In this document: positions 34,801 through 43,800 of the stretch, piece after piece
Layout: each line of letters starts with the position of its first letter
How positions within the stretch are numbered: the stretch's first letter is position 1
Source of the DNA: the human T2T-CHM13v2.0 reference genome, Homo sapiens
Length of the DNA: 64,000 bases
Assembly (NCBI RefSeq): GCF_009914755.1
Contig: NC_060944.1
Direction: 5' to 3' (one strand)
Notes under the pieces: generated by a model
The model's database searches: none
Told to the model about the DNA's origin: nothing
Seen by the model: only the letters and a program-made list of their open reading frames with translations
Translations under genes and position numbers: made by a program

Positions 34801-37800
34801 CGGAAGACAATGGCAATGTGACACTTGGTGTCTAGTTTCCTATGAAAGAGTTAACACTTAAAACTTTTCTAGATTTTTCTTTCAGTGCAACAGTTACCAA
34901 ATGTCTGCTATGGAAAAGGTATTAGGCTGGGCAGTATGAGGTGTAGAGACAAGGGATGGTTCACCCATATCCTCCTTATAAAACACTGAACGTCCCACTA
35001 AAAAACTTTCAGGTGTCACCAAACAGGAGATTTAATCAAACAGGTCACAAAGCTCACACAGGAATCAGCAGTGGTTGTGGCTAGGGAAACCTGAGAGTGA
35101 TCTGCTAAGTTTTAAATCCAGTGGCCTAAACAGCAGAGAAAAGAGGCACCCAGACTAGAAGCTGGGAATTTTACGTAAAATCTCTTTCCCATTAAACAAA
35201 CAAACAAATTGCTTGAGTTTGGGGAATGGAGTGTTCACTGGAGCTTCCACTCTCTATCAGTGATCAAGAAGTGCTCTACAAGGGAATCAAGATGTCCACT
35301 GGAAGGTTTCAGAGCAGTCCTTGCAAACAGAGCCAACTGAGAATAGGAGTGTTTATTCTGTCTGTTAAAGATCAGCTCTCAAAGGTGAGGAGTGGTATTT
35401 TCTTGGTATAGTCCCTGACTCCCTATTCAGACTTCCTTCCTCTAAGGATCTATATCTTTAGATAGTCACGCAGACTAAATGTGCAGCCAATTTCTAGGAT
35501 TTGCATTCAGAGAAACAGAAGCCCTGCTAATGGGTTTCAGAGAATAAACATTTTTTTTTCTCTCCCACCCCCAACAGCTCTGGAGAGAAGGCCCTGTACC
35601 TTGGCAAAAGTGGACCCTTTCCCCTCAGACTGGATGGTGATGGTGTGCGTTCGCCTCTGCAGAATCTGGTCTATGTCTTCTTCACAGAACTTGGAGCCTT
35701 CATCTTCTTCATCCATTAAGGCTCCATAAGCACCTTTCCGGAGTAGGTCCTCCACCTCCATTTTTGAGAGCTGCTGTACCTGGACAGGTCACCAAAGGCT
35801 ACTCACAAAGTGGAAAATGTATAGGAGAAAAACAGCCTCAAATCTGGTTTTTGTGATTCAGTGCATAGTTCCTCCATGAACTACATGTTAGAACAAAGGA
35901 CGTGGGCAACAAACTTCAGCTAGTGAAATCCCAGATGCGATACTCTGGGGAGGGCAGGCAGACAGTCCTCTATAGGCAGCTCTGAAATAAAGCTCAGCAC
36001 ATGATCCAAGGTCCCTAACATTCTTCAGGATGTTGGTTATTATCAGATGTCACAAGCCACTATAACTATGCATCATTGAAGATGGTACTTTTGACATCTT
36101 TATATTTTAGTTAGAGCTTGTATCTTTAAAAACCTCCAGATGTACCAAACAAGCAGAAGAACAATGATTTATTCATTATTAAATAAATATGTATATTAGT
36201 ATTGTAAATGAGGTCATTTCTCAACTAAAAAAAAAATGATCCCATGATAAATGTGATCTTCTCAAAAAAAACAGGAAATGGGGTCCCAAACACCCTTTTC
36301 TGGTTCTAATTAAGAATCTGGTTCTCTTTATATCAATCACAAGAGGGAATTCCATGACTCTCTGCATGACTAACTTGAAGTATTATACTTAGCAACATAT
36401 GCATAGCTAAGAGGATATGGAACATCTGGACTAAAGACAACTCATTTAGAAGGTTTAAGCATCCAATCTTTGATGCCCTGAGCCCAGAGATTAAGGAAAT
36501 ATTCTGCTTTGTTTGCCTATACTTTAAGATACTTTAGGACAATTTAAGAATCTTAGCTGTAATTCTTATGCCCCCAAAGGGGGAAAAATATTTTAACTGC
36601 CTTATTTTAAGCTGCTAATTTATTCATTCATTTACTGACCATCCAGCACTTTATGTTTTTAATATGCCGAGCACTGTTAGGGGCCGAGGGGACATAGATA
36701 AAATTGGTCCCAGTACACTCTCAAAGCTCAAAGTCTGAGGTATGAGATAAGGCACAGTAACAAATACAATGTTAAGATCTACTGGCTTCTAACGGGCACA
36801 GTTAAAAACTCTGTTTACTGAAATGTTACACCAAGCTGGGCAATCCTACCTCATAACTGCTTCTACGGATTTCCTTTAACCACCCAGAAAACACAGACAC
36901 CTGACTCTTAACGATGCCCTGTTGTAGGGAATTACCCAATAATGATGTGAGGGCTGGCTCAATGCAGCGAAAGTGAACCCTTAAACAGCTGTAAGAAGAG
37001 AAGCCTGTCTGGGCTGTGCGACCAATGTTCCTTAAGACTCCAGAGCAGGCCCATCACACTCACCCCATTGGTGCCGCCCTTTCGGTTGATGTCCTGAAGA
37101 ACAGCCTTGTCCAGCCCCAGCTTTAGGCTGGCCTTGTCAAACATCTCGCGCTCGTAGGAATTTCGAGTGATGAGGCGATACACCTTCACAGCTTTGCTCT
37201 GGCCTATGCGGTGACATCGGGCCTGAGCCTGGGAAGAAGAAGAGTCATATGCATCACGTCACCGTATGTATAAACGGCAGCAACCCTGGGAATAGGGGAG
37301 TGCTTAAATGTCATGTGGTGTGAGTGGCCAACTCTCGGTTACAAGTAACAGGACTGATTTCAGAACAGAATTTATACCCAAAGGTTGGCTGCCACCCTCC
37401 GTGGCCACTCATTTCTTCTCCCATTGTGTACTGACTACTGCGTGCCAGGGATAAAGCAATGAGAAGGACATGGTGTCCCATCCTGTGCCCCCGCCCTGCT
37501 GTGGTCTGTGCAAGGCAACTTGTGAGTGGCACACATTCCCAGGATGCTGTCCTGTCCTCTTGGAAGATATGCTTCAGAGCTGGTAGCACTGAAAATTTAT
37601 TTTTAAAATTTTGCTACTGAAATTTTCAAACATAGATCAAAATATAGGGAAGTATAATGACCTCTTACGGACAATCTCGTTTATTTTTACCACACTCCAC
37701 CCTCCCAGATTGTTAGGAAGTAAATAAATCCTAAGCATCATACTGTTTCATTCTTACATATTTCAATACACATTTCTAAAGATACAAACTCTTGTAAAAT

Positions 37801-40800: not shown

Positions 40801-43800
40801 TGACCTGAATGAGAGACCTGAAGTCAAAGGAGATCATTTTGGAGCCTTAAAATTTCAATGCTCCGGTGGATTTTGGACTTCCATGGGCCCCCTTTGTTTT
40901 GGCCAATTTCTCCCATTTGGAATGGCTGTATTTACCCAATACCTGTATCCAAATCATATCTAGAAAGTAATTAACTTGCTTTTGATTTTACAGGCTCATA
41001 GGCAGAAGGGACTTGCCTTGTCTCAGATGAGACTTTGGACTGTGGACTTTTGGGTTAATGCTGAATGAGTTAAGACTTTCGGGGACTGTTGGGAAGGCAT
41101 GAAATGTGAAGACATGAGATTTGGAGGGGCCAGGGGCAGAGTGATATGATTTGGCTGTGTCCCCATCCAAATATCAACTTGAATTGTATCTCCCAGAATT
41201 CCCACACTGTGGGAGGGACTCAGCAGGGAGGTAACTGAATCATGGGGGCTGGTCTTTTCCATGCAATTCTCACGATAGTTAATGAGTCTCATGAGATCTG
41301 ATGGGCTCATCAGGGGTTTCTGCTTTTGCTTCTTCCTCATTTTCTCTTGCCGCTTCCATGTAAGAAGAGCCTTTCGCCTCCCGCCATGATTCTGAGTCCT
41401 CCCCATCCATGTGGAACTGTACGTCCAATTAAACTTCTTTTTCGTCCCAGTCCCCGGTATGTCTTTATCAGCAGTGTGAAAATGAACCAATACATCCTGG
41501 TTTACCAAGTTGTTCTTGGGGGCAGGAGGGAAGGCAGAACTTGTTCTCCACTGTCACTTTCTTAGACTCAACAATCCTGGTCACTTCCGGGGAGACCCAG
41601 ACCCCACTGAGGAAGGAGCACATAGCTGGCAGGCAAGAGCTTATGTGTGAGGCCACCAAGCATGGGCAACAGAACAGACCCTGGGGTCTCTGTGCACAGC
41701 AGGGCCACCAGGAAGACCAGAGCAAAGGTCTTCATAGCATGGGAAAAACTAACTTTTCCTCTCTCTTGCCAGGCTGCAGGGCAAGTGGCTAAGAAACAGT
41801 CCAGCCATAGACAGGGGTAGAAAACTTACAGACAACAATCTGGATACCCTAGAGGTGGTCCCTGCTACTAGGGATGATCATGGTTTCTAGTGCCTACTCA
41901 GTGGGCAAATATAGGAAGTGTTTGTGTGTGTAGAGTGTATATAAACATATGCATATATAAGACAAAATACATCATGAGGTCATACTGATATTTTTAGTTC
42001 AAATTATGATTGAAGAATTTTAGTTTCATCAACCTCACATCTGTATTTCTTTAATCATGTTGAAAAACTCAATTTTCAACCACATCAATATCAGTACTCA
42101 TTTGATTTGTCCCACAATATAACATTTTCAGAAAACCAATACCATTACAACTCACTCAAAACATAATTACCAAAAAATTTCAAGATTTTTCTCTCCCCAG
42201 CCACTTAGGGATATATCCTGCTAAGTATGTATAGTGTTTTAAATACACACTTGAAAGTAGGTTTATTTTCTGTAGTTGCAAGGTTAGCAATCCTGAAACT
42301 ACTTTCTGTTTAATCTAGGTTTCAGCAAATGAGTAAAGATACCGGGGGTAGCAGGAGTAAGGGCTTTCACTGTTGGAGAAGGAAATTATAAATATGGAAA
42401 GGAGGAAAACTAAAATAAACTCTGTGGTGCTAGAATGAATTGGAGGTATCAGTATTAACTCATGGTTAGGTGTACATGTGTATTTATATACACACATACA
42501 TATACATAAAGGTACAGAAATAGATACGGATATGCATGTTTACGTATGCATTTGTGTCTATACACACATATACAAATGAATGCATATATTTACACATATG
42601 CATATTTATAGTCTCTCTTTCTGTGTGTATTCCAGCTATGTCCACTGAGAGGGCCTAGAAGAAACATCATTGCAGTAGCAATGAACACACCCAACTCCTG
42701 AATCTTGATTGCTAAAAACCATTACCTATACAACAGAGCCACAGTGTGCTAGAGAAATGGCTAACTGTAGTTAGGGCTGTGGTAGAGAAAGTATAGACTA
42801 AGCCTGAAACATATTACTGTGTCAGATGTAAGAAATTACTCAAAGAACGAGGGAGACATATGAGAATAACACTTAAAGCTCGAAGAGACTCCCACTGGCT
42901 AAGTCTAGAACTATATGAACAGAACATCGAAATAAATATAGTAACAGATTATAACTCACTAAATAAAAAAAGAACCCATGTATTCATATTGACATAAAAT
43001 AAATAAATGGGAGAAAAAGGGAACACTCTTCCTTATAGTAGAATGCTAACTAACCAGTGCAGAGCGACAGTTAGAAAATCATCACTTTGTAACCATCATA
43101 GTGATGACTGATTCAGCCAAAAATAATCAATGGATGCTAAAACCAATGGGTGATACTTTGATGAGGAACAGGTACAGTTCCAATTTATTTCTCCAAAATT
43201 ACTTATTATTTTCAAAGGGAAAAACAGAAACTTTATAAGTGGAGAAATCGGACAGATATCACTGTACTAAGTGATCAAAGTTACCATCATCAGACAAATG
43301 GACACCATGTTATTCCTGATGTGATATATTGAGATGGCTGTGTCAGTTCTGTAGTAGTACTAAACCTAGATCCAATCCTGAGGAAATACAGACAAATCCA
43401 AACGGAGGGACAACCTACAAAAAAACTGGCCAGTACTCTTCAAAAACTTGAAGGTCATAAAATAAAAAGAAAAACTGAGGAACTGATCCAGATTAACTAA
43501 GACTAAAGGGACATGACAGCTAAAGGTAATGGGTGACCCTGGATTGAATCCTGGACTGGGGAAATGACAGCTATAAAATATGTTGAAACAAATGATAAGA
43601 CTTGAATATGAACTGTGGATTGGAGAATAGTATTTTTATATCTTGATTCTGAGAACTGAACTGTGAATATACAAGAGAAAGTCCTTGTACTTAGTGAAAT
43701 ACACACTGAAAGTATTTAGGGGACAAGGGGGTACAATGCCTGCAACTTACTCTCAAATAGCTCAGACAAAAAGTGATGTGTGTCTATGCATGTACTCAGA

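What the first reader, a model, noticed from the sequence alone, without database searches (positions are those of the whole stretch)
37595..42270. Three-layer nested insertion dates the Ly6 retrocopy: old L1, then retrocopy, then THE1A
Seen: an antisense old L1 3'UTR stops at about 38585 (...cttttagcgggaatg) and resumes at about 41826 (...cagacaacaatctgg). The Ly6 copy fills that gap and is itself cut by a THE1A with a 5-bp TSD (ttctg/tcctg). Knowledge: L1MC4/5-type elements predate the eutherian radiation, whereas THE1 elements are restricted to simian primates. Inference: the retrocopy arose between those two events. Species that branched before the THE1A insertion may hold an uninterrupted copy, which would allow the ancestral protein to be reconstructed.
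Basis: partly seen in the sequence, partly recalled or inferred. Interest (0 to 1): 0.7.

Follow-up and report, generated by a model that had tools for sequence, protein, structure and literature searches.

The report
Nested repeats bracket a Ly6 retrocopy
A dead, intron-less copy of a Ly6a-type immune gene lies inside an old repeat in a CHD6 intron and was later split by a primate LTR element; the layering is real, but it is an ordinary genomic fossil.

Summary
A 2240-bp THE1-type LTR element (39255-41494; LTRs of 346 and 353 bp; flanks ttctg/tcctg) splits a minus-strand processed copy of a Ly6a-subfamily gene (38586 to about 41804-41821). That copy in turn splits one old interspersed repeat. 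The repeat's two flanks (ending at 38585, resuming at about 41822) sit on neighbouring columns in an alignment of 15 uninterrupted genomic copies.

So the insertion order is old repeat, then retrocopy, then THE1. The closest intron-bearing relative of the retrocopy is LY6S on chr8.

Not verified: the names "L1MC4/5" and "THE1A", because no repeat library was available, and presence or absence in other species. The retrocopy has no detectable target-site duplication.

The locus has more than three layers. A 185-bp inverted fragment of the same old family sits in the left arm, and a second inverted copy follows at 42282-43056.

Rough clocks put the retrocopy nearer the old repeat than THE1. Its transversion branch is 4.4 times that of a THE1 LTR lineage, against 5.7 times for the old repeat, and its CpG observed/expected ratio is 0.06. 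It therefore probably predates primates.

This is a routine nested-repeat fossil of low interest. Side findings are two further LY6S-type retrocopies (chr17, chr19) and an inverted exon-1-like piece at LY6S.

The parts
37593..38281 (-). Old interspersed repeat, left arm part 1 (L1-3'-end-like; the name is not verified). The T/A-rich terminus lies at about 37593.
   Evidence: Matches to other genomic copies. L073 shares the same terminus at about 37593.
38282..38465 (+). A fragment of about 185 bp from the same old family in the opposite orientation, nested in the left arm. It includes a TA/CA-rich simple stretch.
   Evidence: Other copies (L021, L047, L059, L062) join about 38280 directly to about 38467. 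38295-38399 is the inverted complement of 42035-41920, score 67 against a shuffle maximum of 45. It is 77% identical, in direct orientation, to 42390-42534.
38466..38585 (-). Old repeat, left arm part 2, ending at ...agcgggaatg.
38586..38596 (-). Decayed poly(A) remnant of the retrocopy (minus strand GGGAGAAAAAA).
   Evidence: In the three-way alignment it lies exactly where the chr17 copy has its A-run, 20-25 nt after the decayed AATAAA site.
38597..39254 (-). Retrocopy 3' part: the C-terminal Ly6 coding remnant (stop codon at 39046-39044) and the 3'UTR. 39250-39254 is one copy of the THE1 target-site duplication.
39255..39600 (+). THE1-type 5' LTR (346 bp, TG...CA).
39601..41141 (+). THE1-type internal region (1541 bp), ending in a purine-rich tract just before the 3' LTR.
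   Evidence: It lies between the two LTRs.
41142..41494 (+). THE1-type 3' LTR (353 bp).
   Evidence: The search gave 6341 first-look candidates genome-wide; the 39 other scored matches are 86-88% identical, 33 of them over the full 353-base query and 6 ending 1-12 bases short.
41495..41821 (-). Retrocopy 5' part: 5'UTR (exon-1-like), ATG at 41735-41733, signal peptide and the N-terminal Ly6 remnant. 41495-41499 is the second copy of the THE1 target-site duplication. The 5' end is secure to 41804; 41805-41821 is unassigned.
41822..42190 (-). Old repeat, right arm, resuming at the family column next to the one where the left arm stops.
42282..43056 (+). A second copy of the same old family in inverted orientation (context, not part of the nest).
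   Evidence: 41973-42124 is the inverted complement of 42464-42307, score 50 against a shuffle maximum of 39.

Best explanation
This is a stack of successive retroelement insertions in the CHD6 intron between the exons at 37064-37228 and 53123-53318. It has no evident present function.

Step 1. An old LINE-like repeat inserted with its sense on the minus strand and its A/T-rich end at about 37593.

Step 2. A spliced, polyadenylated mRNA of a Ly6a-subfamily gene (the lineage of today's LY6S on chr8) was reverse-transcribed into that repeat between 38585 and about 41822. This was presumably done by L1 machinery, which is inferred. It gave an intron-less copy of about 990 bp on the minus strand. 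The copy has since decayed: at least two frameshifts, a premature stop in the ATG frame, a 32-nt deletion in the GPI-signal region, and the AATAAA signal lost.

Step 3. A THE1-type MaLR LTR element integrated into the coding part of that copy on the plus strand, duplicating 5 bp (CAGRA on the minus strand).

The order of steps 1 to 3 is shown. The retrocopy is probably far older than THE1 and likely pre-primate (about 60%); that age is inferred.
For: THE1 layer. The LTR pair and its 5-bp flanks are seen. K2P distance between the LTRs is 0.146 at all sites and 0.116 without CpG sites. If the element plus one copy of the 5-bp duplication is left out, chr20 aligns with chr17 and LY6S across the site with no break in colinearity.

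Retrocopy layer.
- The chr8 locus carries the same sequence as three blocks separated by introns: L038 6370-6315, about 5830-5715 and 4367-3638.
- That chr8 locus is LY6S, because both cloning primers printed in PMC9574348 occur in it.
- In chr20 these blocks are contiguous. The 3' end coincides with the chr17 copy's AATAAA plus A-run.

Old-repeat layer.
- 15 copies in the alignment and 23 of 36 loci are uninterrupted across the insertion point.
- The window's two flanks occupy neighbouring columns.
- L055 leaves 10 nt between its two matches, against 11 in the window.

Clocks agree with the order.
- Transversion distance per lineage: THE1 LTR 0.023, chr20 branch 0.101, old family 0.13 per copy.
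- K2P: 0.073 per THE1 LTR lineage (half the pair distance), 0.27 for the chr20 branch and 0.27 per copy for the old family; the two branch values are my own three-taxon arithmetic on the distances.
- CpG observed/expected: 0.06 in the retrocopy against 0.24 in the THE1 nested in it.

Literature. THE1A-D are reported as simian-only (PMC10735291, passages).
Against: - No target-site duplication was found for the retrocopy: 1999 of 2000 shuffles scored as well as the best candidate. Its 5' end is uncertain over 41805-41821.
- Pfam finds no UPAR_LY6 domain in either translated half (0 of 2), so the Ly6 assignment rests on DNA homology to LY6S.
- The L1 nature of the host repeat is not shown. No ORF2 domain was found in 115 ORF pieces from 7 related loci.
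- The chr20 branch length is an upper bound on the insertion age. It includes any divergence of the source gene before retroposition.
- At 63-70% identity, alignment error inflates all of the old distances.
- The LTR transversion count is small (15).
Confidence: 0.9

Rival explanations
1. The two flanks are unrelated fragments of old repeats that merely lie on either side of the Ly6 copy. In that case nothing is dated from below.
For: The neighbourhood is crowded with fragments of the same family in both orientations (38282-38465 and 42282-43056). Family names could not be assigned.
Against: The flanks have the same orientation. They occupy neighbouring columns in an alignment with 15 uninterrupted copies. 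Eight loci are colinear with both flanks, and L055 matches the spacing to within a base (10 nt against 11).
Confidence: 0.03
2. The THE1 element was already in the source transcript and was copied in together with it. The two layers would then be a single event.
For: None found. It is only formally possible, because the element lies inside transcribed sequence.
Against: LY6S, the chr17 copy and the chr19 copy all lack the element. It sits in the coding part of the last exon and in antisense orientation. It has its own 5-bp duplication made of retrocopy sequence. Its LTR lineage distance is 4.4 times smaller than the retrocopy branch.
Confidence: 0.02
3. The retrocopy is young. It arose in the primate stem shortly before THE1 activity, and its large divergence reflects a lost, divergent source paralogue plus fast CpG decay.
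For: The chr20 branch is only an upper bound. The sequence was GC- and CpG-rich when it inserted: the chr17 copy and LY6S exon 4 are still 61% G+C. The mouse has eight genes in this subfamily (PMC9574348, passages), so lost paralogues are conceivable.
Against: The branch based on transversions alone, which CpG decay affects less, is still 4.4 times the THE1 lineage and 2.4 times the chr17 branch. CpG observed/expected is 0.06, below even the old repeat arms at 0.12. PMC9574348 argues for expansion in the mouse rather than loss in other lineages.
Confidence: 0.3

Closest known systems
LY6S (human chr8, between LY6E and LY6L; Shmerling et al. 2022, PMC9574348)
   Same: Homologous from the 5'UTR to the poly(A) site (852 shared alignment columns). 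The signal peptide, cysteine-rich three-finger region...[12 protein letters not shown] C-terminal motif and GPI-signal remnant come in the same order.
   Different: The chr20 copy has no introns and has frameshifts, a premature stop and a 32-nt deletion. It is about 35% different (uncorrected) from LY6S. It carries a 5' exon-1-like segment that lies in inverted orientation at the LY6S locus.
The chr17 processed copy (L039 3258-4278) and the chr19 partial copy (L040 4038-3845) of the same gene lineage
   Same: All are intron-less copies that start with the same exon-1-like 5'UTR.
   Different: The chr17 copy is uninterrupted, keeps AATAAA and an A-run, and has a shorter branch (K2P 0.17 against 0.27; transversions 0.042 against 0.101). 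The chr19 copy holds only exons 1-3 and is 83-86% identical to the LY6S exons. Only the chr20 copy is nested in dated repeats.
THE1 / MaLR LTR retrotransposons (Paulson 1985 and Smit 1993, recalled; Zuo 2023, PMC10735291, passages read)
   Same: LTRs of about 350 bp with TG...CA ends, an internal part of about 1.5 kb, a total of 2.24 kb, a 5-bp target duplication, and thousands of copies.
   Different: The subfamily (A against B, C or D) is not established. The 5' LTR has lost 9 bp that the 3' LTR and most close relatives keep.
Transposition-in-transposition (TinT) dating of nested repeats (Churakov 2010, as cited in PMC10735291)
   Same: The logic is the same: an inserted element is younger than its host.
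   Different: Here it is applied to a single locus with a gene retrocopy as the middle layer, not to genome-wide counts.

Membership tests
Processed retrocopy of a Ly6a-subfamily gene (LY6S lineage) | Source-gene exons are contiguous, with the introns absent | tested here: met
   The LY6S blocks at L038 6370-6315, about 5830-5715 and 4367-3638 are separated by introns on chr8. In chr20 they are contiguous.
Processed retrocopy of a Ly6a-subfamily gene (LY6S lineage) | The 3' end lies at the source gene's poly(A) site and carries an A-tail | tested here: met
   The end coincides with the chr17 copy's AATAAA plus A-run. In chr20 the signal has decayed and an 11-nt remnant GGGAGAAAAAA is left.
Processed retrocopy of a Ly6a-subfamily gene (LY6S lineage) | Flanking target-site duplication of 7-20 bp | tested here: not met
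   The family alignment shows no duplicated host-repeat sequence. The best local match of the two junctions scores 3, and 1999 of 2000 shuffles reach that score. The duplication may be lost to decay, or there may never have been one.
Ly6/uPAR (LU) domain family | Pfam UPAR_LY6 domain match | tested here: not met
   0 of 2 translated halves match any Pfam family at E <= 1. The halves are short, frameshifted and decayed. Membership rests on DNA homology to LY6S.
Ly6a subfamily | The ERAQGL motif at the end of the signal peptide (feature stated in PMC9574348) | tested here: inconclusive
   LY6S reads ERAQGL across its exon 2-3 junction and chr17 reads ERPQGL. chr20 reads RPQGL, but in a frame shifted from the ATG frame by a short deletion (5 gap columns against LY6S, 3 against chr17) in the AG-rich run at the end of the signal peptide.
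THE1 (MaLR) LTR retrotransposon | Two LTRs of about 350 bp with TG...CA ends, an internal region of about 1.5 kb, and a 5-bp target duplication (definition recalled) | tested here: met
   LTRs of 346 and 353 bp, an internal region of 1541 bp, and flanks ttctg/tcctg.
THE1A subfamily | 186ins, 204del, 226_235del and 303_312delinsTT relative to THE1B (PMC10735291, section 11) | not testable with these tools
   No THE1A or THE1B reference sequence was available, and the loci of related LTRs could not be fetched. The 5' LTR reads CCG directly before CCGCCATGT. This fits the text of PMC10204343 on the ZNF100 site in THE1A, but it is not diagnostic on its own.
LINE-1 3' end (L1MC4/5) | An interspersed family whose longer copies continue into ORF2 | tested here: inconclusive
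   The family is real: 144 first-look candidates, 40 scored. No Pfam RT, endonuclease or DUF1725 hit was found in 67 plus 48 ORF pieces from 7 loci on the 5'-ward side. Those copies may simply be too short or too decayed.
LINE-1 3' end (L1MC4/5) | A shared 3' terminus with an A-rich tail | tested here: inconclusive
   One locus (L073) begins its homology at the same T/A-rich point, about 37593. That is only 1 copy.

The most novel reading that the evidence does not exclude
The chr20, chr17 and chr19 copies may be three time-stamped fossils of the single human Ly6a/Sca-1-type gene. All three begin with a 5' exon that today lies in inverted orientation about 330 bp upstream of the LY6S signal-peptide exon.

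If the chr19 copy (83-86% identical to LY6S) postdates the other two, the inversion that cut LY6S off from its ancestral first exon and promoter happened late in primate evolution. That could explain why the human gene is so weakly expressed and was unannotated until 2022.

The chr20 copy, bracketed by dated repeats, would be the oldest snapshot, possibly from before the primate-rodent split.
Probability: 0.2. Interest if true: 0.45.

Novelty: new member of a known kind. Interest (0 to 1): 0.22.

Why it matters
On its own this matters little. Nested repeats around a dead retrocopy are common, and the dating logic is textbook.

Its modest value is as an unannotated fossil. No pseudogene is listed here in the RefSeq table supplied with the finding. 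None is mentioned in the passages I searched in PMC9574348 and PMC4839075. The gene lineage it comes from, Ly6a/Sca-1 and LY6S, has a debated history in humans.

Together with the chr17 and chr19 copies, it gives old snapshots of that gene's transcript, including a 5' exon that is now inverted at the LY6S locus.

Tried and rejected
- **Pfam on the two translated halves of the chr20 copy.** No family at E <= 1. A first attempt that also included a chr17 stretch failed because the stretch contained stop codons. I dropped that stretch.
- **Search for L1 ORF2 remnants beside related copies.** 0 relevant hits in 67 ORF pieces of 45 aa or more and in 48 further pieces of 28-44 aa. The only matches were three weak ones below cutoff (CTP_transf_like, N1_PEX6, HRXXH), which I treat as noise.
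- **Target-site duplication of the retrocopy.** None found. MAFFT placed 41805-41821 on the columns of the left-arm end. However, the local alignment to chr8 exon 1 stops at 41805, and the similarity is no better than shuffles, so I do not claim a duplication.
- **Direct pairwise alignment of the left arm with the inverted copy at 42560-43400.** Not better than shuffles (scores 26 and 30 against shuffle maxima of 38 and 47). Only the right-arm part is significant (42 against 37).
- **Subfamily call for THE1.** The loci of the 39 related LTRs could not be cut out, and no labelled THE1A or THE1B sequence was at hand.
- **A search with the far-left part of the old repeat (37540-38100).** Only 2 other matches.
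- **Twin-priming origin of the inverted copy at 42282-43056.** Rejected, because it covers the same family region as the arms rather than a more 5' region.
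Full report
**What is there.** Reading 37200-42800 shows two long direct repeats. BLAST of the region against itself pairs 39254-39600 with 41141-41494 (83.8% over 357 columns, E = 3e-106), and the repeat finder reports the same pair in pieces.

With boundaries set at the TG...CA ends, the 5' LTR is 39255-39600 (346 bp) and the 3' LTR is 41142-41494 (353 bp). The internal part is 1541 bp and ends in a purine-rich tract, and the whole element is 2240 bp. It is flanked by ttctg (39250-39254) and tcctg (41495-41499), which agree at 4 of 5 bases.

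A global alignment of the LTRs has 343 ungapped columns with 30 transitions and 15 transversions. That gives K2P 0.146, or 0.116 after removing 22 CpG columns. One 9-bp gap is a loss in the 5' LTR.

The 3' LTR has 6341 first-look candidates in the genome. The 39 other scored matches are 86-88% identical: 33 cover the full 353-base query and 6 end 1-12 bases short, and most span about 351-355 bp in the genome. Size, LTR length, TG...CA ends, 5-bp duplication and copy number fit THE1/MaLR. The definition of that family is recalled, not taken from a call.

**The middle layer.** The sequence on both sides of the LTR element, read on the minus strand, matches three other places in the genome.

- On chr8 (L038) it matches three blocks on the minus strand separated by introns: 6370-6315, about 5830-5715 and 4367-3638. 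Translation gives a signal peptide, a cysteine-rich three-finger region and a hydrophobic C-terminus.
- That locus is LY6S. Both cloning primers printed in PMC9574348 (passages) occur in it, and the paper places LY6S between LY6E and LY6L.
- On chr17 (L039 3258-4278) the same sequence is contiguous and ends in AATAAA, about 20 nt, then an A-run.

A three-way MAFFT alignment shows chr20, chr17 and the LY6S exons to be homologous from the 5'UTR to the poly(A) site. It has 852 columns shared by all three. chr20 ends at the same point as chr17, with an 11-nt remnant GGGAGAAAAAA (38586-38596) and a decayed signal.

For that alignment the script left out the THE1 element and one copy of the 5-bp duplication. 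chr20 then runs colinear with the other two across the site. THE1 therefore inserted into a retrocopy that was already there.

The chr20 copy is dead. The ATG frame (ATG at 41735-41733) stops after 55 codons. The Ly6-like reading continues in another frame and shifts again near the THE1 site. A 32-nt deletion removes part of the GPI-signal region. Pfam does not recognise either half.

**The bottom layer.** Searches of the genome with the left flank and the right flank gave weak, short matches typical of an old repeat. L034 and L027 matched both flanks in order.

Searching with the uninterrupted L034 stretch gave 144 first-look candidates, of which 40 were scored. Of the 36 family loci I then held, 23 cross the L034 position that corresponds to the insertion point in a single alignment.

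I aligned 15 such copies and added the window fragments 38480-38600 and 41795-41910. The left fragment follows the family up to ...TTTTAGCGGGAA(TG) at 38585. The right fragment follows it from AAACTTACAGACAACAATCTGG at 41822 onward. These are neighbouring columns. In L055 the two matches (38443-38583 and 41831-42005) are 10 nt apart, against 11 in the window without the insert. The flanks are one element split by the retrocopy.

Its left end at about 37593 is T/A-rich and is shared with L073. I could not show that it is an L1. No ORF2 domain was found in 115 ORF pieces from 7 loci, and no repeat library was available.

**More than three layers.** Other copies join about 38280 directly to about 38467. 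The 185 bp in between are an inverted fragment of the same family: 38295-38399 against 42035-41920, score 67 against a shuffle maximum of 45. They are 77% identical in direct orientation to 42390-42534. From 42282 to at least 43056 lies a second, inverted copy of the family. Neither feature affects the nest at 38585/41822.

**No target-site duplication for the retrocopy.** The family alignment leaves no room for a duplicated stretch, and the best junction match is no better than shuffles. The 17 bases at 41805-41821 are unassigned. They could be the start of the 5'UTR or a decayed duplication.

**Dating.** The order is fixed by the nesting.

- *Upper limit.* PMC10735291 (passages and section 11) reports THE1A-D as simian-only and THE1A as the youngest. 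[quoted passage not shown] With a recalled neutral rate of 1.5-2.2e-9 per site per year, the LTR distances give about 26-49 million years. That arithmetic is mine, from the distances.
- *Relative clocks.* Three-taxon branch lengths from K2P distances (0.44, 0.49 and 0.39) are chr20 0.27, chr17 0.17 and LY6S 0.22; these are my arithmetic from those distances. The old family has about 0.27 per copy, and a THE1 LTR lineage has 0.073.
- *Transversions only.* THE1 lineage 0.023; chr20 branch 0.101 (4.4 times); chr17 branch 0.042 (1.8 times); old family 0.13 per copy (5.7 times).
- *CpG observed/expected.* 0.06 in the chr20 copy (4 CpG in 980 bp), 0.24 in the chr17 copy, 0.24 in THE1 and 0.12 in the old arms.

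These figures are rough. Identities are low, the transversion count for the LTRs is small, and the chr20 branch includes any divergence before insertion. They nevertheless agree with the order and put the retrocopy close to the old end. I therefore expect the orthologous, uninterrupted copy in non-primate placentals too (about 60%). No tool here could test that.

**Comparison with what is known.** This is a standard processed pseudogene inside nested repeats.

- The RefSeq table supplied with the finding lists only CHD6 in the window.
- The LY6S paper has 0 occurrences of "pseudogene", "processed", "chromosome 20", "chromosome 17" or "CHD6".
- The 2016 Ly6/uPAR family review has 0 occurrences of "pseudogene" or "retro".
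- A search for Ly6 with "processed pseudogene" brought nothing relevant among the 12 papers listed.
- Supplements were not consulted, and pseudogene databases could not be checked. The copy may well be listed there.

**Verdict.** The subfamily names and the cross-species prediction are untested. Interest is low.

Noticed in passing
L038 6697-6746 (chr8, plus strand), against the LY6S exons on the minus strand at L038 6370-3638: The 5'UTR exon shared by the chr20, chr17 and chr19 retrocopies matches chr8 at 88% but on the strand opposite to the LY6S coding exons. It lies about 330 bp upstream of the signal-peptide exon and is followed by GT on that opposite strand. The sequence just before AATGAGCAG in the LY6S signal-peptide exon no longer ends in AG. 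This suggests a local inversion that detached the ancestral first exon. PMC9574348 notes that C8orf31 overlaps LY6S on the opposite strand.
   Followed up: partly
L039 3258-4278 (chr17): An uninterrupted processed copy of the same gene lineage with AATAAA and an A-run. It has a shorter branch than the chr20 copy (K2P 0.17, transversions 0.042) and has frameshifts and a stop in the coding part.
   Followed up: partly
L040 4038-3845 (chr19, minus strand): A partial processed copy holding only exons 1-3 joined, 83-86% identical to the LY6S exons. It is therefore much younger. It stops where exon 4 would begin, near the alternative donor that PMC9574348 describes for isoform 2.
   Followed up: partly
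window 38282-38465 and 42390-42534: Two fragments in direct orientation, 77% identical, of the old repeat family, both inverted relative to the arms. They are more alike than family copies usually are (63-70%). This suggests a later local duplication or a younger subfamily.
   Followed up: partly
window 42282-43056: A second copy of the old family in inverted orientation, abutting the right arm near 42200-42300. It gives an ancient, highly diverged inverted-repeat arrangement. It is not twin priming, because both copies cover the same family region.
   Followed up: partly
window about 43380-43770, plus strand: A stretch that looks by eye like another old LINE 3' end, ending ...ctctcaaatagctcagacaaaaag. 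The resemblance is recalled only.
   Followed up: no
window 38586-41821 relative to CHD6: The retrocopy has the same transcriptional orientation as CHD6 (minus strand), and its poly(A) signal has decayed (chr17 keeps AATAAA). THE1 lies antisense to CHD6.
   Followed up: no
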